Source of the DNA: a virus
Lineage: Duplodnaviria; Heunggongvirae; Uroviricota; Caudoviricetes
Length of the DNA stretch: 64,000 bases
Reading direction: 5' to 3' (one strand)
Virus record (IMG/VR): IMGVR_UViG_3300038345_000251
Location: 247,248-311,247 of that record
A program made the position numbers and the translations under genes. Of this stretch, positions 5,337-30,883 are shown one piece after another. The notes under the pieces are model-generated. The model did no database searches. It worked only from the letters and a program-made list of their open reading frames with translations, and was not told the origin of the DNA. Within the stretch, counting starts at the first letter, position 1. The number at the start of each line of letters is the position of its first letter.

Positions 5337-5412
5337 TGGATGGCTGGATTTAATACCAACAATAGCGAGACTGTTTCTCGCTGTTTTACCACGTGACATT
5401 AGACTACATCCA
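5337..5412 (-). pseudogene. degenerate tRNA-like element
   Basis: acceptor TGGATG/CATCCA, D- and T-like arms, non-canonical anticodon and T loops. Confidence 0.45.
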
Positions 5413-5415
5413 TAA

Positions 5416-5569
5416 TGGAGCAGGTGAACGGAATCGAACCGTCATAGCCAGATTGTTCAAACACTACGCTTCGGACGTACAATCGTTCTCCCATTTGTTT
5501 GAAATAATTACTCACAGTGAATTGGAACTGTATGGAAGTCTGGCGCACTAACCGTTGTGCTACACCTGC
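5416..5569 (-). tRNA. tRNA-Gly(UCC) interrupted by a 79-nt intron
   Basis: exon1 5569-5534 ends CCAGA-CTTCC; exon2 5454-5416 AA-TCTGG...T-CCA; joining gives a canonical tRNA. Confidence 0.9.
5455..5533 (-). other. AUACRG...C mini-intron in tRNA-Gly(UCC)
   Basis: starts ATACAG; ACAGT/ACTGT pairing; nested stem TTCAAACA/TGTTTGAA with T-like arm; terminal C. Confidence 0.8.
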
Positions 5570-5575
5570 AAAAAC

Positions 5576-5712
5576 AAAAGTCTTTTTACCCTCATTCGGA
5601 TTCGAACCGTTATCTTCAGACTATCTGTCTGCTATTCTACCTATTAAACTACTTATGCAAGGGATTTATTTTGGCGCATACGAAATTGATTATTGATTGC
5701 TGTAAGACTTTT
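5576..5712 (-). ncRNA. stem+ACAGCAA element enclosing a degenerate tRNA body
   Basis: AAAAGTCTT-ACAGCAA...D arm, CAGAC/GTCTG arm, CGG-TTCGAAT-CCG...AAGACTTTT. Confidence 0.55.
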
Positions 5713-5885: not shown

Positions 5886-6617
5886 TTACTGGTTTTTTAT
5901 ATCTTTTTTTCTAAATGGTAAATCGTATTTTTTACACCATTTTCTAACGGCATTATCTGTTACATTATAGATTTTACCAATTTCAACAAAACTTTTTTCT
6001 TTTATCAAGGAACTTAAAACATCTTTTGGCGGAATTGCATTTTTTTTCTTATTGTATGAAATGTTGTTTTTTTCTAAAAATTTGTTTAATGTTTTTCCAG
6101 TTATATGATTTTTTTTATAAATTTCTTTTTTAGGTAATCCGTTGTTAATGTCATTAATTATACTTTCATAATTTAAATAATTAAAAGAATCGTTTGTTTT
6201 ATGTATATAATTATTTTCATTGTAAAATGAAACCTTGTTTTTTTCCTTTTCTTCTTCTTTCTTTTTTTCTTTTTCTTGTCTGATTTTATAATGTATTTCT
6301 CTATGACAGTTAGCACAAAGTAACATACATTTATCAACTTCTTTTTTTAACGTTTCGATATTACATATTTTACTTGCTGAAATATTGAAATCTTTTTGTG
6401 TTGGGTCTTTATGATGAAAGTCAAGTGCTTCAATACACTTGTCATATCCACATATTTCACATTTACCACCTTTATATTCGACAAGTATTTGTTTATAATT
6501 TTTTCTTTTTTTAGCAACAGATTCATAGTTACATTTTTTACATCTTTTTCTTCCTTTTTTGTCAACGGAAAATTCAGTTTTTCCGTGTATCGGACAAAGT
6601 TCTATAATTGTTTCCAT
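5886..6617 (-). CDS. free-standing HNH homing endonuclease with C-terminal HTH (start moved to METII)
   Basis: CxxC..LDFHH..LCANCHREIH HNH motif; ACTATTTATA just upstream. Confidence 0.8.
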   Translation of the reverse strand: METIIELCPIHGKTEFSVDKKGRKRCKKCNYESVAKKRKNYKQILVEYKGGKCEICGYDKCIEALDFHHKDPTQKDFNISASKICNIETLKKEVDKCMLLCANCHREIHYKIRQEKEKKKEEEKEKNKVSFYNENNYIHKTNDSFNYLNYESIINDINNGLPKKEIYKKNHITGKTLNKFLEKNNISYNKKKNAIPPKDVLSSLIKEKSFVEIGKIYNVTDNAVRKWCKKYDLPFRKKDIKNQ

Positions 6618-6687
6618 ATGTTTTTTATTATAAATAGTTTTTGGTTCGAAAAAAATGCGATAATGTAAAAGTTTTTTGTTCGATTTG

Positions 6688-6764
6688 TCGGGACGGCAGG
6701 AATTGAACCTGCATGTAACCAATTACACTTTCAACACCTTATCAGGGTGAGGTGATACGTCCCG
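6688..6764 (-). tRNA. atypical D-arm-less tRNA-Ile(GAU)-like RNA with long extra arm
   Basis: acceptor CGGGACG/CGTCCCG, CACC-CT GAT AA-GGTG, extra hairpin TGTAA/TTACA, T arm GCAGG/CCTGC; only about 7 nt where the D arm should be. Confidence 0.55.
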
Positions 6765-7040: not shown

Positions 7041-7049
7041 TAAAAATTG

Positions 7050-7172
7050 TTGGGGGTAGAGGAATCGAACCTCTGTCTCGTCTTTATGAGAGATTTGCTA
7101 AGAAATTGCTGCAAGCTTTTATATCGAAAAGCCTTTTTCGCTTTTCGTATGCTGCCACTACACCAACCCCCA
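7050..7172 (-). tRNA. atypical tRNA(CAU)-like RNA with a ~50-nt stem+GCAGCAA insert in the anticodon stem
   Basis: intact acceptor, D and T arms; TCT-CT CAT AA-AGA; insert GCTTTT/AAAAGC-TT-GCAGCAA. Confidence 0.6.
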
Positions 7173-7407: not shown

Positions 7408-7522
7408 TGTGGATGAACAGATTTGAACTGCTGACACGAAGTTTACCCAAAAAGATGATGCTGTTAATTTCCAGAACTGAAAACATATTGTCTTCTGCTC
7501 TACCAGACTGAGCTACATCCAC
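7408..7522 (-). tRNA. atypical tRNA-Pro(UGG)-like RNA with a stem+ACAGCA insert in the anticodon stem
   Basis: intact acceptor, D and T arms; loop TT TGG GT; insert GTTTTCAG-TT-CTGGAAAT-TA-ACAGCAT. Confidence 0.6.
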
Positions 7523-7589: not shown

Positions 7590-7674
7590 TCGGAGTGGGG
7601 GGATTCGAACCCCCAAGCCCATTACAGGCACAAGTTCCTTAGACTTGCGTGTCTACCAATTCCACCACACTCCG
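7590..7674 (-). tRNA. tRNA-Leu(AAG)
   Basis: class II Leu body, CAAGT-CT AAG GA-ACTTG. Confidence 0.9.
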
Positions 7675-8598
7675 TTTTTTCAAATCTTTTTTCCTATAAG
7701 GTAAATCGTATGATTTACACCATTTCACTATTGTTTTATCACAAACATTATAAAGTTTTGCAATATATCTAAAAGAAAAATTAGTAATTAAATCAAATAA
7801 TTCTTTTTTAGAAGGTCTATTTTTTACTTTTCTTTGTTTTAAATAATACTCATGTTGTTTAATTGTATGTTTTTCATCATATTGCTCAGATTTTTTATAA
7901 TAGTTTGTATATTGTTTACCGTTTTTTGATATTTTTATTTCTCCTTTTGGTACTTTAATTATTCCAATATGAGTAATGTCTTTAATTTTATTATTTGATA
8001 ATAGTTCTTTTAATTTATTATTTATTAAATCATGATTGTTTTTTACTATGTCTTCTGAAATTCTAATAACTTTCCAACCCAAAGAAGTTAATAATAAATC
8101 TTTTTTCTTATCATTTTCTTTTCTTTCTTCATCTAAAAGATGTTGTGAACCATCTATTTCAACCGCAATTTTTTCATTGATAAATGCAAAATCAATATAA
8201 TATGGAAAAATAGATTTCTCTCTTTCAATTAAATATTTTTTATCATATTCATTTTCTTGAAGAAATTTTATAAAACATTTTTCTGGATAAGAAGGTTCAT
8301 TTCTTTTTCTCCAAGCAGTTTCTTCAGGATGTTCTTTTAAATATTTAAGCCTTATTTCTTTTAGTTTTAATTTTGTTTCTTTTGTATGTTTAAAACTCTT
8401 AGGATATTTTTTATGTGACAATGTGATTGATTCTGAAAAATTTCTTGTTATATTACCTAATAGTTTTTCTCTAATCCACATTTTTGATTTAATATTGTAT
8501 TTTTTAACAATATCACGTATTGAACAACCATTTAAATATTCATTTCTTATTTTTTCTTTTTCTTCTTCAGTAAACAAATTATCATATTTTGAACTCAT
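7639..8598 (-). CDS. free-standing DUF559/Vsr-like (PD-D/ExK) homing endonuclease
   Basis: YYIDFAF..KIAVEIDGSQH..D..L...GWKVIRI motif; HTH C-terminus; 3' end overlaps tRNA-Leu. Confidence 0.8.
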   Translation of the reverse strand: MSSKYDNLFTEEEKEKIRNEYLNGCSIRDIVKKYNIKSKMWIREKLLGNITRNFSESITLSHKKYPKSFKHTKETKLKLKEIRLKYLKEHPEETAWRKRNEPSYPEKCFIKFLQENEYDKKYLIEREKSIFPYYIDFAFINEKIAVEIDGSQHLLDEERKENDKKKDLLLTSLGWKVIRISEDIVKNNHDLINNKLKELLSNNKIKDITHIGIIKVPKGEIKISKNGKQYTNYYKKSEQYDEKHTIKQHEYYLKQRKVKNRPSKKELFDLITNFSFRYIAKLYNVCDKTIVKWCKSYDLPYRKKDLKKRSVVELVDTQV

Positions 8599-9810: not shown

Positions 9811-10401
9811 TTACTGTATTAAAACACCTTGTTTGTTTTTTCTAGGTTTATAACCTGTTCTACCTAATTTCCAACCATTGTTTAAATATTCTTGAAGTTT
9901 TTCTTTTAATAAATATTTAACTTTACCTTCTTTATTAATCCAAATTCTTTTGTTTGTTGAATTTTCAGGTAACATTTTTTTTCTTGTTTTTTGTTTTGAT
10001 TCTTCTTTATGGTGTCTATTTTTCCATATAGTATTAAAAGAATCTTTGTTGTTTAAATAGATTTCTTGACTAATCCAAAATTTTTCACCATTTTTGTCTA
10101 TAACTGGTACCATTCCATTAGTACTAAAATACTTACCACCTATTTGAACATTATAGCAATTTTCATCTTTTATTAAAGTTTCATTTACTATTTCCTTTTC
10201 ATATAAAAAGGCTTCTTCTGATGTATTAAAATATTTTAATATTTCTTTTTTAAAGCATTCTATTCCATATTTAATAATTGCTTTTTTAAGAAATTTTCCA
10301 GAACCCATATAACCGTCATCAATATTATCTGTGTTATGTACACCATAATAATATTTGTTGTTAATGGTGTTTGTAATTTTATAAAAATAATGATATTTCA
10401 T
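9811..10401 (-). CDS. free-standing Seg-like GIY-YIG homing endonuclease
   Basis: YFYKITNTINNKYYYGVH..DDGYMGSG N-terminus. Confidence 0.8.
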   Translation of the reverse strand: MKYHYFYKITNTINNKYYYGVHNTDNIDDGYMGSGKFLKKAIIKYGIECFKKEILKYFNTSEEAFLYEKEIVNETLIKDENCYNVQIGGKYFSTNGMVPVIDKNGEKFWISQEIYLNNKDSFNTIWKNRHHKEESKQKTRKKMLPENSTNKRIWINKEGKVKYLLKEKLQEYLNNGWKLGRTGYKPRKNKQGVLIQ

Positions 10402-11679: not shown

Positions 11680-11817
11680 TCAAGGGTGAAGGATTCGAAC
11701 CCCCTGGATTCATCTGGAACGTCTAGAATACCCAAACTATCCCCTTTCGGTCTTCCCTATGTATCTGCTGTTAGCTACTCAGCAGTAAGGCTGTTTTACC
11801 AATTAAACTAACCCCTG
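11680..11817 (-). tRNA. tRNA-like RNA with a large insert replacing the anticodon arm
   Basis: acceptor CAGGGGT/ACCCTTG, D and T arms intact; insert has CTGCTG/CAGCAG hairpin with ACAGCAG, CC-GAAA-GG and TTTGGGT. Confidence 0.5.
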
Positions 11818-13610: not shown

Positions 13611-13657
13611 AATCGTTATTTTTATTGAAATTATTATTAATTAAGGCTTATGCCTTG

Positions 13658-14001
13658 TGGACCAGAGCAGGGTCGAACTGCTGTCTTAAATACCGTCAAC
13701 AAAAAAATTGGTTACAAGCTTTACTATGTTCGTTCCTGAAGTCTATAAACATAGAAGAACTGAAAGTTACAGGAAGAACGATTTTAATTCGAATATTTTT
13801 TTGTTCTATCCTAGTTTAAAAATATTCTATTGTATCTTCTGTTTCCAGGTTTTACAAGACCCAGCAATACTTAGGCAATAGCGTAAGCGTATGCAAGTTG
13901 GTTTTCACTAACTTTGTCGTTTGTTGTTTGTAGAATTTTAAGTGTCACCACTACTTGTTTTCTTGTCAACTAATATCCAATCAAAACCAAAATACTGGCC
14001 C
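13658..14001 (-). ncRNA. ssrA: tmRNA; predicted tag (A)TNDKVSENQLAYAYAIA
   Basis: GGGCCAG/CTGGTCC-A acceptor with G3-U70, T arm, internal tag ORF 13924-13871. Confidence 0.88.
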
Positions 14002-15295: not shown

Positions 15296-15882
15296 CGGAG
15301 AGTATAGGATTCGAACCTATGGACCGAAAAACGGTCAACAGTTTTCCTTACCACTATAGTTTTCACTACCAACAATATCATCATGGATTGCACATTTATA
15401 ACAATCTTTATATCAGGATTGCTCCCGTGCCAGGTGCTCCTATTGTTGTTTTGTGGTCTGGAACATACCTCAACCAATATTGAAATCTTGCAAGTATGGC
15501 TGTTACAAGGAAAGAATAATTCATTTCCATCTATAACCAATTTCAACTTAGGTTATTACCATCTGTTCTCTACACACTGTCTATTATTAATCCTAATGCT
15601 TTCACATGCAATGCAGAAGTATTTTTCCATTAGGATTATTTTAACATTGGCTCGGTATTAGCATATTTGGACTGTCCTCTTCCGTCTGAATTCTAAACGA
15701 TGCTTCTGTGTTACCACCAGCATTAATCAGGAATGGTTTGTTATTTAGACGATTATCCGATATATTCCTGCACATCCAAACTTAGCCTTCACCGAATTTG
15801 GTAATTTCTACATTATAAATTTCTTTATAAGCACTCAAATTAACTTTAAGACTGCCGCAATCGACCACTCTGCCAACTCTCC
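15296..15882 (-). tRNA. tRNA-Ser(UGA) interrupted by a group I intron
   Basis: exon1 ends GCAGT-CT T; exon2 GA AA-ACTG; class II Ser body, G73. Confidence 0.9.
15347..15847 (-). mobile_element. group I intron (501 nt, no endonuclease ORF) at tRNA position 34/35
   Basis: 5' exon ends in U, intron ends in G; P/Q/R/S-like cores AATTCGGTGAAG, AATACCGAGC, GTAGAGAACAGA, GAGGTATGTTCCA. Confidence 0.85.
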
Positions 15883-16066: not shown

Positions 16067-16188
16067 TGCTACAGGTAGGAATCGAACCTACGAAATTGAA
16101 TATTGTTGTGCCAAATTCAAATAACAGTTTCATCCATAGTCACACTTTAGGAATCAACCATTGTGTTGGGCCACTTCACCACTATAGC
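16067..16188 (-). tRNA. atypical tRNA-like RNA with enlarged anticodon/variable region (possible Arg-CCU loop)
   Basis: acceptor GCTATAG/CTGTAGC, D and T arms intact; TT CCT AA in a poorly paired arm. Confidence 0.45.
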
Positions 16189-17272: not shown

Positions 17273-17344
17273 GTGATGTATATAGGAATCGAACCCATCT
17301 TGTCACGTTTAGAGTGTGCCGTTCTACCGATGAACTAATACATC
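17273..17344 (-). tRNA. amber suppressor tRNA(CUA)
   Basis: GATGTAT/ATACATC-A, D and T arms canonical, loop CT CTA AA; anticodon stem has only 3 central pairs. Confidence 0.75.
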
Positions 17345-24538: not shown

Positions 24539-24820
24539 TTAACAATAGTGATTACCATATGTTCCTAACAAATGTTTTTCTTTATTAATATTACTAAGAT
24601 ATTTTTGTATTTCCGTTGAAAGTGTATCATTTTTTAAATGATATGTTTGTTCAGGTATAACTGTTATGGGAAACCTACAATTAACTTCGTTACATAACCA
24701 TTCTTCTTTTATCCAAATAGTTGTATCAATGTATTTGTAATTAGTTCCACAGTCAGTTTTTTCTGGATGATAATTATGATTAATTGAATAATCAAGATAG
24801 GTTTTTCCGTCTTTTTGCAT
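24539..24820 (-). CDS. hypothetical protein
   Basis: 93 aa ORF in operon. Confidence 0.5.
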   Translation of the reverse strand: MQKDGKTYLDYSINHNYHPEKTDCGTNYKYIDTTIWIKEEWLCNEVNCRFPITVIPEQTYHLKNDTLSTEIQKYLSNINKEKHLLGTYGNHYC

Positions 24821-24821
24821 A

Positions 24822-25370
24822 TTAATTTTTATTTTTGTTCATATATTCTAAAAGTGTATCTTTACTGATAACCATAAAATCGTGAATTTGGAATGGGTCA
24901 ATATCTTTATTGTGTATTAACAAATCTCTAACAGCAGTTGAAGAAATATGTCCAAATTCCTGTTTTGTTGGAAGAATCAATGTATCAATTTTTGGTTTAA
25001 TCTTCTTGTTAGCATCAGCGATTGCACGTTCATTTTCAAAATCAAGCATATTACGTACACCACGAATGATAAATCTGGAACCAAATTTTTCACAGGCATT
25101 GACAGTTAAACAATCATAGTCAACAACTTCATATCTATTATATATTTCACACCCGTCCTCTCTAAACCATCCCATTCCAGTAAAATATTTTTCAATGGAA
25201 TCTTCAATAATCTCTTTTCTTGTTTCAACATCAAAGAAACCTTTTTTAAGAGTGTTTTTACCAACACCAATGATTATTTTATCAAATAATGGAAGCGCAC
25301 GACAAAATATGTCTAAGTGACCCTTTGTAAATGGGTCAAAAGACCCAGGGAAAAAACCTATTCTTTCCAT
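24822..25370 (-). CDS. coaD: phosphopantetheine adenylyltransferase-like nucleotidyltransferase
   Basis: FPGSFDPFTKGH, IIRGVR..DFENE, ISSTAVR. Confidence 0.85.
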   Translation of the reverse strand: MERIGFFPGSFDPFTKGHLDIFCRALPLFDKIIIGVGKNTLKKGFFDVETRKEIIEDSIEKYFTGMGWFREDGCEIYNRYEVVDYDCLTVNACEKFGSRFIIRGVRNMLDFENERAIADANKKIKPKIDTLILPTKQEFGHISSTAVRDLLIHNKDIDPFQIHDFMVISKDTLLEYMNKNKN

Positions 25371-27888: not shown

Positions 27889-28740
27889 TTAATCTGTTAA
27901 ACGGTTTTCATTTACTTTAAATTTTTTAAACATATTTTTTTCTGAACAAAATGCTTGATATACAGTAGGATATTTTAGAATGAAATCTGCTGCTTTTTCT
28001 GGTTCTTCACAAGCATTATAAGTTTCGTCACAAGTACATACATTATCATAGTAAAGGTCTTCAATGGCACAGTGAGTTTTCCATAAAATTTCCCATCCAT
28101 TAGCAAGTTTTCTTGTATAGACAGTTCCATTGGAAAATATTTTTGTCTCTGTCTCATTAAATCCATTGTCATTGTAAGTTTTTTCAATGAATTTTACAAT
28201 TTCTTCCTTGGTTTGCTTATTATCTTCCAATTTATATTCAATGTTTGGAAAAGCGTTTTTCAATGTATGAAGTACCACATAAACCCTATACTCGTCAGGA
28301 CATTCAATTGTGAATTTTTGAGGAACGTTATTAGGATTATAACCATCCCATGCCCATGATTCTTTAAATCCTTCAAGGTAGCAACTTGGAATTTTGTCAT
28401 ATTTGTTTTCTACCATTCGCTGACTGATACAATCCTCTGGTATTAGGTTAGTTCTTTCATATTTGTATGGAAGTTCTACACTAAGTTTCCAATCATAAAA
28501 ATTACCTCTCATAATAACCTTTACACCGTTCATCATTTTAATGTAATAAACAGGCAAAAGGCAAGATTTAGAAGTGTGGGTTGATACGATGAATACACGA
28601 CTTTTTAAAAGATTCATTCCAATATCATCCCTAACAAAGATTGCTTGCTTTACTGCTGCGTTTTTATAAATGAGTTTTTCATCCAAATCCCATTTATTCA
28701 TCCAAGTTTGTAAAAGTTTCATTGTTTGTAAAAGTTTCAT
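27889..28740 (-). CDS. hypothetical protein
   Basis: 283 aa ORF. Confidence 0.6.
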   Translation of the reverse strand: MKLLQTMKLLQTWMNKWDLDEKLIYKNAAVKQAIFVRDDIGMNLLKSRVFIVSTHTSKSCLLPVYYIKMMNGVKVIMRGNFYDWKLSVELPYKYERTNLIPEDCISQRMVENKYDKIPSCYLEGFKESWAWDGYNPNNVPQKFTIECPDEYRVYVVLHTLKNAFPNIEYKLEDNKQTKEEIVKFIEKTYNDNGFNETETKIFSNGTVYTRKLANGWEILWKTHCAIEDLYYDNVCTCDETYNACEEPEKAADFILKYPTVYQAFCSEKNMFKKFKVNENRLTD

Positions 28741-28888
28741 TATTTATTTTTTATAATTCGTTCAATATATTCTTTAACGTCTTCTAATTCTTGTATCTCA
28801 AAACTCGTGCCACATTCTGCATGTTGTTTAAGTTGGTATATTTTCCCTTCAATATAACCTAATGTTCTATTTACCAATATTAAATCAT

Positions 28889-29740
28889 TCATAAGCCAAA
28901 AGTATCTCTTACTCCAAAATTTTCTTTCTTTTTAGAAAATATAATTTTGATATGTGTATAATCAGTTAATTTAACATCAAAATCTTTTTTAATTTCATCA
29001 TCAAGAAAAGAAACACGAAAACGTTCAAGATAATCAATATTATAATCATGTTCCATTAATTCCAAAAAGTCTTCTACCATAATAGGAAAATAATTTTCAT
29101 TAACTTCACGTTTCCAATTAATTTTCCAACGATACTTCAAAAGAAAATGCATGAAATTTTTCATAATTTTAAGTTCGCCATGCTTTTCTTCAAAGTCAGC
29201 AACTTGTTTTTCATATTTTACTTTACCATACACTTTATTCAATTCAGACGAATTGACATGTCTATAAGTATCATAAGTAACCATCATGTCTCTTACAATA
29301 ACATAATCAAAATCGCTATCAAACACTTTATTCCAAAAATCATCTATTTCTTCAGTAGATTTTGCATATGAATATACTTCATGAATAACAGAAGAAAGGA
29401 ACAAGATTTTAATACGATTTTTGCTTTCATTCAATTTTTCCTTTACTTCATCCCAAGAAGAAGTAAATATAACATCTTCATTATCATCACCATGAAAATT
29501 GGTTTTAGCAATATCAATCATAGTTTCAGAAATGTCATAACCAATATATGTGTGCATATAATGATTGTCTTTATTGGTTTCACAAAGATTGTTAATAATT
29601 GTACCGTCAGCACAACCAAAGTCAACAATTGTATAATGTTTATCAGAAAACTTATCCAACCAAAAAAGTTTATCTTTAATATGTTTGGACATATTTTCGT
29701 TATAAGAGTTAATGTTTTTGAATTTTTTTCCTACTTCCAT
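28889..29740 (-). CDS. class I SAM-dependent methyltransferase
   Basis: IVDFGCADG motif I, YIGYDIS, FLSSVIHEV. Confidence 0.8.
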   Translation of the reverse strand: MEVGKKFKNINSYNENMSKHIKDKLFWLDKFSDKHYTIVDFGCADGTIINNLCETNKDNHYMHTYIGYDISETMIDIAKTNFHGDDNEDVIFTSSWDEVKEKLNESKNRIKILFLSSVIHEVYSYAKSTEEIDDFWNKVFDSDFDYVIVRDMMVTYDTYRHVNSSELNKVYGKVKYEKQVADFEEKHGELKIMKNFMHFLLKYRWKINWKREVNENYFPIMVEDFLELMEHDYNIDYLERFRVSFLDDEIKKDFDVKLTDYTHIKIIFSKKKENFGVRDTFGL

Positions 29741-29833: not shown

Positions 29834-30883
29834 TTAAATTAATAAATCAATTTCGGAAAATTGTTTTTTAGATTTCATTATTTTAATGATATTTTCTTTT
29901 CCACCTGCTTGATATGCTTCACCAAAGTCTTTCCAAGGAAGTTCATTAGTTTCAAGACGTACATACCATATTTTATTTCTTAATCTACCAACATTTAATA
30001 AATTATATATACGTTTTGTTTCAATAATTTTTGTATCACCATCAAGACATATTATAATATTACTATTTGCTTTTTCATAAAGTTGTTTATAAATTTCGTT
30101 TTCCTTCTTAAGTACCTTACCTAATAATGCGATACTATTTGGATAATATAAACAATCTAAACCACCTTCGACAAGAAATATATCATTATTCCATTGTATT
30201 TTACTCTCTTGGAAAACAATTTTATTTTTATCAGCGTCACAGTTTTTATACTTTACTTTATGATTATTCCAAGGAGAAGATAGACTATTACTCTTTTCAT
30301 TAATGAAATCTCTACCAATCCAATAATTTAAGTCACCTTCACTATTGTATGATGGAATAATAATTCTATCCCTGTCTTGCCACTTTTCTTCATCCCAAGT
30401 AGTATAACCGATATTATAAAAATCAATCATGTCCTGAGTGATTTTTCTTTCTTCAAGATATTCAATAAGTTTTTGTTTTCTACAGGTTTTCAAATCAATT
30501 TTTTTAAAGGTCAATGGTAATTTCAGACTATTATAATACCCTAAATCTTCTCCATTATCTTTAAATAAATCTAAATCATAGTATTTGGTTTCTTTTATTT
30601 CATTTACTATTCTAAAATATTCAGATAGTAATTCTTTAGTACCCCATTTTTTAATTAATTTAGATATGTTTCCACCATGTTCAGTTGACCAATCGTGATA
30701 TTTGCCTAATGAAAGAGATACTTCAAGATTATATTTTCCATCAGGTACACCACCATTTTCTTCAGCAATCCAAGGTGAATTAAATTGGTATTGGGATTCA
30801 TTAGTGCTAAAATCCCCTTGTTTAGATTCCCCAAAGATTAACCTAAGAATGTCGTATATTTGTCTAACTTCAACAGGTAACAT
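29834..30883 (-). CDS. DNA primase (TOPRIM)
   Basis: RIIIP..YWIGR, IFLVEGGLD, ICLDGD, KDFGE. Confidence 0.8.
   Translation of the reverse strand: MLPVEVRQIYDILRLIFGESKQGDFSTNESQYQFNSPWIAEENGGVPDGKYNLEVSLSLGKYHDWSTEHGGNISKLIKKWGTKELLSEYFRIVNEIKETKYYDLDLFKDNGEDLGYYNSLKLPLTFKKIDLKTCRKQKLIEYLEERKITQDMIDFYNIGYTTWDEEKWQDRDRIIIPSYNSEGDLNYWIGRDFINEKSNSLSSPWNNHKVKYKNCDADKNKIVFQESKIQWNNDIFLVEGGLDCLYYPNSIALLGKVLKKENEIYKQLYEKANSNIIICLDGDTKIIETKRIYNLLNVGRLRNKIWYVRLETNELPWKDFGEAYQAGGKENIIKIMKSKKQFSEIDLLI

What the first reader, a model, noticed from the sequence alone, without database searches (positions are those of the whole stretch)
5455..5533. Smallest family member: 79-nt intron in tRNA-Gly(UCC)
Sequence AUACAGUUCC-AAUU-CACUGU-GAGU-AAUU-A then UUCAAACA...UACG-UCCGAAG-CGUA-G-UGUUUGAA-C. 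It keeps the pseudoknot and an elbow mimic with a variant T-loop but no anticodon-like arm, so it defines a minimal core. The site could equally be read as 37/38, because both junctions have an A.
Basis: seen in the sequence. Interest (0 to 1): 0.7.

Follow-up and report, generated by a model that had tools for sequence, protein, structure and literature searches.

The report
Tiny tRNA-shaped intron in phage tRNA-Gly
A glycine tRNA gene of a 393-kb phage is split in its anticodon loop by a 79-base insert built from a small hairpin plus a miniature tRNA look-alike; this is the poorly understood intron type first seen in Lak megaphages, and no known splicing mechanism fits it.

Summary
A minus-strand tRNA-Gly(UCC) gene (5569..5416) carries a 79-nt insert (5533..5455) in its anticodon loop. 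Removing it restores the loop CUUCCAA, as in intron-less relatives in other phages.

The insert belongs to a family that includes the published "enigmatic" Lak megaphage introns, one of which sits at the same site in tRNA-Gly(UCC). In 16 of 17 members:
- the 5' splice site lies 3 nt before a covarying hairpin (S1);
- the 3' splice site lies after a T-like 7-nt loop, 13 stacked layers and one C.

That rule fixes the ambiguous Gly site at 36/37.

The variant T-loop (UCCGAAG) and the strand AUGGGAGAAC recur unchanged in a metagenome intron whose acceptor-like helix covaries. This supports the "elbow mimic".

The pseudoknot is not significant for Gly alone. It covaries only in the CGG-type 5' module, seen here in Asn, Arg and one tRNA of uncertain identity.

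This is not the smallest member: a Lak Phe intron is also 79 nt and a metagenome Ile intron is 70 nt.

I found no group I core, no bulge-helix-bulge motif, no guide pairing and no known ribozyme. The phage lacks RtcB and EndA but encodes RNA ligases shared with Lak. Splicing itself is unproven and the mechanism is inferred.

This scan had already noted the same intron type on other DNA.

The parts
5416..5569 (-). tRNA-Gly(UCC) gene with intron and encoded CCA (5418-5416)
   Evidence: Rfam tRNA 53.1 bits over 5419-5569. The spliced product is called tRNA-Gly(tcc) by ARAGORN.
5534..5569 (-). Exon 1 (tRNA positions 1-36, ends ...CUUCC)
   Evidence: Sequence. The 5' half is identical to the intron-less tRNA-Gly(UCC) of L013 up to the anticodon stem.
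5455..5533 (-). 79-nt intron, AUAC...C register (36/37)
   Evidence: The register is chosen by the family rule: 3 nt before S1, and one C after the 13-layer helix.
5419..5454 (-). Exon 2 (starts AAUCUGG; ends at the discriminator U)
5531..5533 (-). Unpaired AUA at the 5' end of the intron (family consensus N-U-A, occasionally NUAA)
   Evidence: Family table; CUA in L157.
5515..5530 (-). S1 hairpin CAGU-(UCCAAUUC)-ACUG, extendable by A3-U20
   Evidence: Present in the MFE and centroid folds. S1 covaries across the family: CAG/CUG, CGG/CCG, CAAG/CUUG, CUGAC/GUCAG, CAGG/CCUG, CAAUC/GAUUG.
5506..5523 (-). Candidate pseudoknot S2: AAUU (5523-5520) with AAUU (5509-5506)
   Evidence: P=0.30 in any register and 0.07 in the family register. 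Supported only by analogy with the CGG-type module.
5496..5503 (-). Acceptor-like helix, 5' strand UUCAAACA
   Evidence: Pairs with 5463-5456. Covaries with CAGUAUG/CAUACUG in L157.
5485..5494 (-). Conserved single strand AUGGGAGAAC (D-loop stand-in carrying GGG)
   Evidence: Identical 10-mer in the L157 intron; GAGAAYGA is also in the Glu intron of this genome.
5465..5479 (-). T-arm mimic UACG-UCCGAAG-CGUA
   Evidence: ACGUCCGAAGCGU is identical in L157, and the outer stem pair changes U-A to A-U.
5455..5464 (-). G70 (conserved non-Watson-Crick layer), acceptor-like 3' strand UGUUUGAA, and terminal C79 before the 3' splice site
   Evidence: 13 layers plus C in 16 of 17 family members.
5886..6722 (-). 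Free-standing HNH homing-endonuclease-like gene just upstream of the tRNA-Gly(UCC) gene
   Evidence: PHROG HNH families, best 2.5e-32. Relatives sit next to tRNA genes in other phages and in Lak.

Best explanation
This is a genuine intervening sequence of the Lak-megaphage type of tRNA intron, and it must be removed to give the phage's only tRNA-Gly(UCC).

Its parts, in order, are:
- three unpaired nucleotides (AUA);
- a short hairpin, S1;
- an 11-nt linker that may form a weak pseudoknot with the S1 loop;
- a miniature tRNA look-alike: an 8-bp acceptor-like helix stacked on a 4-bp T-like stem through one non-Watson-Crick layer (13 layers in all), capped by the 7-nt loop UCCGAAG;
- a 15-nt GGG-containing strand in place of the D and anticodon arms;
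- one final unpaired C.

The intron's own architecture sets both splice sites. The 5' site is 3 nt before S1, and the 3' site is one nucleotide after the 13-layer helix. In the pre-tRNA both sites sit at a three-way junction on top of the anticodon stem.

Inferred, not shown: cutting is done by protein or ribonucleoprotein enzymes that dock on the tRNA-like handle. The 3' cut lies at the place where a tRNA 3'-processing enzyme such as RNase Z would cut a tRNA-like substrate. The agent of the 5' cut is unknown. The exons would then be joined by an ATP-dependent RNA ligase that uses 3'-OH and 5'-phosphate ends, such as the ligases that this phage and Lak phages both encode. The intron probably spreads among tRNA anticodon loops as a mobile element.
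For: A real interrupted tRNA:
- The tRNA model matches end to end with a 79-nt insert.
- Removal restores CUUCCAA, as in intron-less relatives.
- It is the only Gly(UCC) gene in the 393-kb genome. Glu, Tyr, Asn and Arg(UCU) also exist only in intron-bearing form.

Family membership:
- Lak Table S6 lists introns with the same build, including one at the same site of tRNA-Gly(UCC), with presence/absence alleles.
- I recovered these from IMG/VR and GenBank and found further members in metagenomes.
- The rule '3 nt + S1 ... 7-nt loop + 13 layers + C' holds in 16 of 17 members, and every helix layer except the innermost G-C covaries.
- The descriptor gives 4 hits in the real genome and 0 in shuffles.

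Elbow elements conserved in L157 while the acceptor-like helix covaries.

Sites are intron-defined. With fixed intron boundaries the insertion point is 34/35, 35/36 or 36/37 in different tRNAs.

Against RNA-guided self-splicing and known classes:
- no exon-intron guide pairing;
- no BHB;
- only the tRNA model hits in Rfam at E<=10;
- few conserved unpaired bases.

Enzymes:
- no RtcB, EndA, Rnl1 or RNase Z-like gene in the phage;
- two PF09414 RNA ligases, one 62-63% identical to a Lak protein encoded 1.6 kb from the Lak tRNA arrays;
- among 50,697 GenBank phage records that ligase is found in only 20: 15 Lak, 4 other huge phages and XacN1.
Against: - Splicing, end chemistry and the enzymes are all inferred.
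- The intron alone folds no better than shuffles (z -0.14).
- Counted from the T-like loop, the final C sits at tRNA position 74, not 73, so a strict RNase Z ruler would cut one nucleotide earlier.
- Nothing explains the 5' cut.
- RNA ligases are common in huge phages with many tRNAs and may serve tRNA repair instead.
- The shared ligase may only reflect kinship between this phage and Lak.
- One family member (own Asn) has 12 layers and a 9-nt loop, and one (L157 Ile) has a degenerate T-loop. The elbow may therefore not be strictly required.
Confidence: 0.5

Rival explanations
1. It is a new small self-splicing, or self-cleaving plus ligating, RNA. The three-way junction of anticodon stem, S1 and acceptor-like helix would form the active site, and the tRNA-like domain would be scaffold only.
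For: Both splice sites lie at one junction and are set by intron structure, not by tRNA position. No splicing endonuclease or RtcB is encoded. The topology of the 3' site (helix, one unpaired C, cut, next helix) recalls the hammerhead cleavage site. AUA, the A-rich linker, AUGGGAGAAC and an A.G/G.G layer are conserved unpaired elements.
Against: Very few unpaired bases are conserved across the whole family, and linker and loop sequences differ widely. There is no guide pairing with the exons. No Rfam ribozyme matches at E<=10. At 70-80 nt it is far below any known self-splicing intron. The thermodynamic signal is weak.
Confidence: 0.2
2. The insert is never removed. The gene would be a dead tRNA disrupted by a mobile element, or a non-decoding tRNA-shaped RNA like T4 species 1 RNA.
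For: No expression or splicing data exist. This scan has found many phage tRNA-framed RNAs with pseudoknot inserts that cannot decode. The array also holds other odd tRNA-like genes.
Against: Removal restores a perfect 7-nt loop and a needed anticodon in every member. Exons keep an intact cloverleaf and match intron-less relatives. Five isoacceptors exist only in this form. Helices of the insert covary, so the RNA structure is under selection. Lak populations carry precise intron-plus and intron-minus alleles.
Confidence: 0.1
3. It is an archaeal/eukaryal-type intron cut at a bulge-helix-bulge motif by a splicing endonuclease and joined by RtcB.
For: It lies in the anticodon loop and its size is in the archaeal range. 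Many bacteria carry RtcB, including Bacteroides in the control set.
Against: No allowed register in any of 8 members tested gives a 4-bp central helix with flanking helices. There is no EndA or RtcB homologue in this phage, and no RtcB in the Lak-like record. Bacteria are not known to have the endonuclease (established knowledge).
Confidence: 0.03
4. It is a degenerate group I (or group II/III) intron.
For: Group I introns are the only established introns of bacterial and phage tRNA anticodon loops. The same array has a weak group I match in another tRNA (18.4 bits, 15547-15858).
Against: It is 79 nt, against about 200 nt for the smallest known group I intron (Azoarcus, 205 nt; my recollection). 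It gives no RF00028 or group II match at E<=10. It ends in C, not G; exon 1 ends in C, not U; and there is no P1-like guide pairing.
Confidence: 0.02

Closest known systems
'Enigmatic' tRNA introns of Lak megaphages (Devoto et al. 2019, Nat Microbiol, PMC6784885, Table S6)
   Same: Same build: N-U-A, then a hairpin starting at C, an A-rich linker, a tRNA-like domain of 13 layers under a T-loop, and a final C. Same host type (huge phage tRNA arrays). One Lak intron (87 or 84 nt) sits at the same site of tRNA-Gly(UCC). Neither has an Rfam hit.
   Different: There is no significant primary-sequence similarity to any Lak intron. This one has a larger S1 loop with a possible pseudoknot, a variant T-loop UCCGAAG with GGG in the D-like strand, and the shortest middle segment (15-16 nt). 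The paper gave sequences only, with tRNAscan 37/38 boundaries that mislabel the Asn(GUU) gene as Tyr(GTA). It described no structure or mechanism.
Group I introns in bacterial and phage tRNA anticodon loops (cyanobacterial tRNA-Leu(UAA), Azoarcus tRNA-Ile)
   Same: An intron in the anticodon loop of a bacterial-type tRNA. Splice sites are set by the intron and not by a ruler on the tRNA body. Likely mobile.
   Different: A third of the minimal size or less, no conserved catalytic core, no terminal G, no guide sequence, and no Rfam match.
Archaeal and eukaryal tRNA introns (bulge-helix-bulge, EndA plus RtcB or Trl1)
   Same: Small, protein-dependent (as I infer here), in or near the anticodon, and in archaea at varied positions.
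   Different: No BHB motif in any register. No EndA or RtcB in the phage. The hosts are bacteria.
tRNA-like elements processed by RNase P and RNase Z (mascRNA of MALAT1, tmRNA tRNA-like domain, plant-virus tRNA-like structures)
   Same: An acceptor/T-arm minihelix with a T-loop and a D-loop stand-in but no anticodon arm, as in the tmRNA tRNA-like domain. The end of the element coincides with a processing site.
   Different: Here the element is nested inside another tRNA's anticodon loop. The stack is 13 layers, not 12. The 5' splice site lies about 30 nt upstream of where RNase P would cut.
Phage T4 species 1 / species 2 RNAs and other tRNA-framed pseudoknot RNAs
   Same: A phage tRNA-cluster gene with a structured insert at the anticodon position.
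   Different: Those have no restorable anticodon loop. Here excision gives a canonical decoding tRNA.

Membership tests
Lak-type tRNA-like mini-introns | Insert in the anticodon loop of a phage tRNA gene whose removal restores a 7-nt loop and a sensible anticodon | tested here: met
   intron-less homologues.
Lak-type tRNA-like mini-introns | 5' end N-U-A(A) followed by a hairpin whose first pair starts at a C, 3 nt (rarely 4) from the 5' splice site | tested here: met
   AUA + CAGU/ACUG; family table; S1 covaries among members.
Lak-type tRNA-like mini-introns | 3' domain: T-like 7-nt loop, then 13 stacked layers on the 3' strand, then a single C, then the 3' splice site | tested here: met
   UCCGAAG + 4 + 1 + 8 layers + C79. 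The rule holds in 16 of 17 members.
Lak-type tRNA-like mini-introns | GG-containing single strand between the acceptor-like 5' strand and the T-like stem | tested here: met
   AAUGGGAGAACGAUUG; the 10-mer is conserved in L157.
Lak-type tRNA-like mini-introns | Actually spliced from the RNA | not testable with these tools
No published RNA data were found.
Group I intron | Conserved P3-P9 catalytic core detectable by RF00028 | tested here: not met
   No match at E<=10 in 5400-5590.
Group I intron | Terminal G at the intron 3' end, U at the end of exon 1, and P1 guide pairing | tested here: not met
   The intron ends in C and exon 1 ends in C. There is no consistent guide pairing.
Archaeal/eukaryal BHB intron | Bulge-helix-bulge: two 3-nt bulges around a 4-bp helix at the splice sites | tested here: not met
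   At best 2 of 4 central pairs for Gly in any of its three registers; no member fits.
Archaeal/eukaryal BHB intron | Splicing endonuclease (PF01974) and RtcB available | tested here: not met
   Neither is in the 393-kb phage, and RtcB is absent from the Lak-like record. The host genome is unknown.
Known small self-cleaving ribozymes (hammerhead, HDV-like, twister, pistol, hatchet) | Match to the family's covariance model | tested here: not met
   Only tRNA and one chance-level SAM/SAH hit at E<=10. By eye there is no P3 hairpin for an HDV fold and no CUGANGA/GAA core.
Group II / group III intron | 5' GUGYG, domains V and VI | tested here: not met
   It starts AUACAG, is 79 nt, and gives no Rfam group II hit.
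Non-decoding tRNA-framed phage RNAs (T4 species 1 type) | No restorable anticodon loop | tested here: not met
   Excision gives a canonical loop CUUCCAA.

The most novel reading that the evidence does not exclude
These phage mini-introns are a fifth mechanistic class of intron. The intron carries its own tRNA look-alike as a molecular ruler, so that tRNA-processing enzymes (or a new ribozyme core at the junction) cut at fixed distances from intron helices. A dedicated phage RNA ligase shared with Lak megaphages then reseals the anticodon loop. The 79-nt Gly intron and its 70-80-nt relatives would be the minimal substrates that make this testable.
Probability: 0.5. Interest if true: 0.85.

Novelty: new member of a known kind. 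Interest (0 to 1): 0.6.

Why it matters
Bacteria and their phages are thought to have only self-splicing group I or II introns. An intron of 70-140 nt that fits none of the four known classes, sits inside or right beside the anticodon, and recurs in huge gut and rumen phages would mean an unknown way of cutting and rejoining tRNA in bacterial cells. The practical gains from this work:
- a structural rule that fixes the splice sites;
- corrected isotype calls, for example the Lak 'Tyr' gene is Asn;
- a list of very short natural substrates;
- a candidate ligase to test.

If the tRNA-like handle recruits host RNase Z or RNase P, it would also be a new example of a mobile element hijacking the tRNA maturation machinery.

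Tried and rejected
- Close relatives of this phage: searches with the SprT-like neighbour protein found none. The HNH neighbour gave only intron-less arrays.
- blastn of the intron against GenBank phages: only a chance 24-nt match.
- MAFFT alignments of whole introns were structurally wrong. I therefore built no covariance model and used a hand-written descriptor plus per-layer tables.
- The idea that S1 copies the host tRNA's anticodon stem (CAG/CUG in Gly, Glu, Tyr; CGG/CCG in Asn) does not hold in the Lak members. Dropped.
- An exon-binding guide sequence (GGGAG opposite CUUCC) is not significant and is absent in Lak Gly.
- HDV-like, pistol, hatchet and hammerhead folds were checked by eye and by Rfam. 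None fits.
- RNase P as the agent of the 5' cut is rejected on geometry; its ruler would cut about 30 nt downstream of the 5' splice site.
- Proteins shared with the Lak array neighbourhood other than the ligase and the HNH gave no RNA-processing candidate: a cytidylyltransferase-like protein and two unknowns.
- The PD-(D/E)XK-like ORF next to the L157 intron is unrelated to the DUF559 ORF of this window.

Full report
**Observation.** The window is part of a 392,823-bp IMG/VR phage record. A minus-strand array of about 30 tRNA genes and a tmRNA lies between about 3 and 17 kb. Rfam's tRNA model matches 5419-5569(-) from end to end at 53.1 bits, with 81 nt where the model has two anticodon-loop positions. 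On the minus strand the gene reads:
- acceptor GCAGGUG;
- D arm GCAC/GUGC;
- anticodon stem CCAGA;
- CUUCC;
- the 79-nt insert (5533..5455);
- AA;
- UCUGG;
- T arm GACGG-UUCGAUU-CCGUU;
- CACCUGC-U-CCA.

Cutting the insert out gives a 75-nt RNA that ARAGORN calls tRNA-Gly(tcc). Two other IMG/VR phages carry nearly identical intron-less tRNA-Gly(UCC) genes with the loop CUUCCAA. L013 shares the first 26 nt exactly and differs in the anticodon stem by compensatory changes. Because 'CA' stands at both junctions, three registers (35/36, 36/37, 37/38) give the same mature tRNA, not two.

**Family in this genome.** Four more genes in the array are split in the same way: Glu(UUC) 86 nt, Tyr(GUA) 136 nt, Asn(GUU) 102 nt and Arg(UCU) 104 nt. 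The isotypes follow from the tRNA bodies. Glu has the typical UC-GUCU...GGAC D arm. The Asn gene has a short variable loop and G73, so it is not a class II Tyr. Arg has A20. These five isoacceptors exist only in intron-bearing form in the 393-kb genome. That argues against dead genes.

**Link to the literature.** Devoto et al. 2019 (PMC6784885) reported "enigmatic" introns in Lak megaphage tRNAs, with no Rfam hit and with intron-plus and intron-minus alleles in populations. Their Table S6 shows the same build. It includes an 87-nt intron at the same place of tRNA-Gly(TCC): CUUCC|AUACAAG...GCAUAUAGC|AA. I recovered the following:
- the Lak Gly intron, and an 84-nt variant, from IMG/VR, with a tRNA-Pro(UGG) intron whose 36/37 site is unambiguous;
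- the Lak-A1 and Lak-B1 introns from GenBank;
- three metagenome contigs with further members.

With the boundaries derived below, the Lak gene annotated 'Tyr(GTA)' is Asn(GUU). Lak-A1 has a proper class II tRNA-Tyr elsewhere.

**Anatomy and rule.** The members share these features:
- The intron starts N-U-A (once NUAA).
- A hairpin S1 follows whose first pair is always C-G. Its stem covaries: CAG/CUG, CGG/CCG, CAAG/CUUG, CUGAC/GUCAG, CAGG/CCUG, CAAUC/GAUUG.
- A 7-13-nt, mostly A-rich linker follows.
- Then comes a tRNA-like domain: an acceptor-like helix interrupted on its 5' strand by 12-79 nt that contain GG, and a T-like stem with a 7-nt loop.
- From the loop, exactly 13 stacked layers run along the 3' strand, followed by one C and then the 3' splice site.

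This holds in 16 of 17 members; own Asn has a 9-nt loop and 12 layers. Every layer except the innermost G-C varies while staying paired.

A strict descriptor of these features finds four sites in the real genome, all in anticodon loops, and none in five shuffled copies. With these intron-defined boundaries the insertion point is 34/35, 35/36 or 36/37 in different tRNAs. The intron, not the tRNA body, therefore sets the sites. For Gly both rules pick 5533..5455 (36/37).

**The Gly member in detail.** Its parts are AUA; S1 CAGU/ACUG with loop UCCAAUUC; linker UGAGUAAUUAU; acceptor-like UUCAAACA/UGUUUGAA; strand AAUGGGAGAACGAUUG; T-like UACG-UCCGAAG-CGUA; G70; and C79. The minimum-energy and centroid folds of the 154-nt precursor keep the whole cloverleaf. 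They place S1 and the acceptor-like helix on top of the anticodon stem as a three-way junction. The stability is unremarkable: z is -1.85 for the precursor and -0.14 for the intron. The support is therefore comparative.

The best comparator is an 80-nt intron on metagenome contig L157.
- Its 5' module is the Arg type of this genome.
- Its tRNA-like domain is the Gly type. AUGGGAGAAC and ACGUCCGAAGCGU are identical, and the non-Watson-Crick layer next to the T-like stem is kept.
- The outer T-stem pair changes from U-A to A-U.
- The acceptor-like helix is entirely different in sequence (CAGUAUG/CAUACUG) yet paired.

So the variant T-loop and the GGG strand are selected together. That fits an elbow-like contact, possibly G-C pairs with C55 and C56 of the loop (inference). 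It also shows that the modules are shuffled between introns.

**Pseudoknot.** In Gly, AAUU (loop) can pair with AAUU (linker), but shuffled loop and linker reach 4 bp in 30% of trials, or 7% if the family register is required. The Lak Gly, Pro, Asn, Phe and Thr introns and own Tyr have a 6-7-nt ANNAAA-type loop and no such pairing. In the CGG-type module, five sequences differ within the first 26 nt only at position 1 and at two S2 pairs. Those pairs change on both sides, giving GUUC/GAAC, AUCC/GGAU and AUUC/GAAU. All cells are paired, and only 6 of 500 shuffles do as well. The pseudoknot is therefore real in that subtype, plausible in Gly and Glu, and not a universal core element.

**Size claim.** Gly is the shortest in this genome, but Lak Phe(GAA) is also 79 nt and the L157 Ile(GAU) intron is 70 nt.

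**What it is not.**
- Rfam at E<=10 over 5400-5590 returns only tRNA.
- It is not group I: there is no core, the intron ends in C, exon 1 ends in C, and there is no guide pairing.
- It is not BHB: no register of any of the 8 members tested gives a 4-bp central helix with flanking helices.
- HDV-like, pistol, hatchet and hammerhead folds do not fit by eye.

**Enzymes.** The phage has no RtcB, EndA, T4 Rnl1-type ligase or RNase Z-like gene. It does encode two 225-226-aa PF09414 RNA ligases. One is 62-63% identical to a Lak protein that lies 1.6 kb from the tRNA arrays of Lak-A1 and Lak-B1. Among 50,697 GenBank phage records this ligase occurs in only 15 Lak genomes, four other huge phages and XacN1. 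The Lak-like IMG/VR record has four PF09414 genes and no RtcB. This fits sealing of 3'-OH and 5'-phosphate ends, which metal-dependent tRNA-processing nucleases leave. It is correlation only.

**Mechanism, marked as inference.** The 3' site always follows the tRNA-like helix by one nucleotide, as a tRNA 3'-processing cut would. The 5' site is always 3 nt before S1. Both lie at one junction. Few unpaired bases are conserved and there is no guide pairing. I therefore favour protein or RNP endonucleases docking on the tRNA-like handle, followed by the phage ligase (about 50%), over a new ribozyme (about 20%). Two points remain open: the agent of the 5' cut, and the fact that the final C corresponds to tRNA position 74 rather than 73.

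**Mobility.** Several observations suggest mobility aimed at anticodon loops:
- precise intron-plus and intron-minus alleles in Lak;
- insertion into many different tRNAs at structurally equivalent sites;
- module shuffling;
- free-standing homing-endonuclease genes beside intron-bearing tRNAs, such as the HNH gene at 5886-6722 with relatives next to tRNA genes in other phages and Lak.

The route is unknown.

**Verdict.** This is a real and correctly located feature. It is a divergent small member of a published but uncharacterised intron type. The tRNA-like elbow is supported. The pseudoknot is unproven for this member. It is not the smallest member. The family remains of high interest because no known splicing mechanism fits it.

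Noticed in passing
window 5519-5527 (minus strand; intron nt 7-13): The S1 loop region contains UUCCAAU, identical to positions 33-39 of the mature tRNA-Gly (anticodon loop plus the first stem base). Chance is roughly 0.5-1% for a 7-mer in 79 nt. It is not seen in the Lak Gly intron. It could be a leftover of insertion or an anticodon-loop decoy.
   Followed up: partly
window 5886-6722 (-); L006, L007, L010, L011; L146 23042-23647; L147 24948-25559: An HNH homing-endonuclease-like gene sits just upstream of the split tRNA-Gly(UCC). Its relatives sit next to intron-less tRNA-Gly(UCC) genes in other phages, next to tRNA-Asn in Lak-A1, and next to the intron-bearing tRNA-Asn in Lak-B1. The intron may shield the tRNA gene from a neighbouring endonuclease, or travel with it.
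   Followed up: partly
L146 (Lak-A1 MK250016.1) 30022-30114(-); L147 (Lak-B1) 24743-24883(+): The Lak gene published as tRNA-Tyr(GTA) with an intron reads as tRNA-Asn(GUU) split at 35/36 when the AUAC...C boundaries are used. It has a short variable loop, and a separate class II tRNA-Tyr exists in the same array.
   Followed up: yes
L157 753-832(-) and L157 2270-2339(-) (metagenome contig Ga0138317_1009054): There are two family introns on one 2.8-kb contig. The first is an 80-nt mosaic of an Arg-type 5' module and a Gly-type tRNA-like domain. Its host tRNA reads Val(UAC) at 34/35 by the family rule but could be read as Gly(UCC) or Arg(UCU). The second is a 70-nt intron in tRNA-Ile(GAU) with a degenerate T-loop UUCAUAA, the shortest member seen.
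   Followed up: partly
G000 218709-219389(-) and 28460-29137(-) (outside the window; loci L140, L139): The phage has two small PF09414 RNA ligases. The first is 62-63% identical to a Lak protein next to the Lak tRNA arrays, is nearly restricted to Lak and a few huge phages in GenBank, and lies beside an RlaP-like nucleotidyltransferase (PHROG 388).
   Followed up: partly
window 5587-5658 (-): A degenerate tRNA-like sequence lies between the HNH gene and tRNA-Gly(UCC). It scores 23.5 bits on the Rfam tRNA model, below threshold. It has a good T arm, but its acceptor strands do not pair.
   Followed up: no
window 7049-7172, 7408-7522, 11680-11817, 16067-16188 (-): These are further tRNA-like genes with inserts of 31-70 nt that do not follow the AUAC...C rule. 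Their nature is unresolved.
   Followed up: no
window 15547-15858 (-): A weak full-length match to the group I intron model (18.4 bits, E 0.039 in an 851-nt search, below the gathering score).
   Followed up: partly
window 13655-14001 (-) and 17273-17344 (-): A phage-encoded tmRNA (49.2 bits, just above the gathering score) and an amber-suppressor-type tRNA(CUA) lie in the same array.
   Followed up: no
window 7639-8598 (-), 9811-10401 (-): Two more free-standing endonuclease-like genes lie inside the tRNA array: a DUF559/Vsr-like protein with HTH domains, and a GIY-YIG protein.
   Followed up: no
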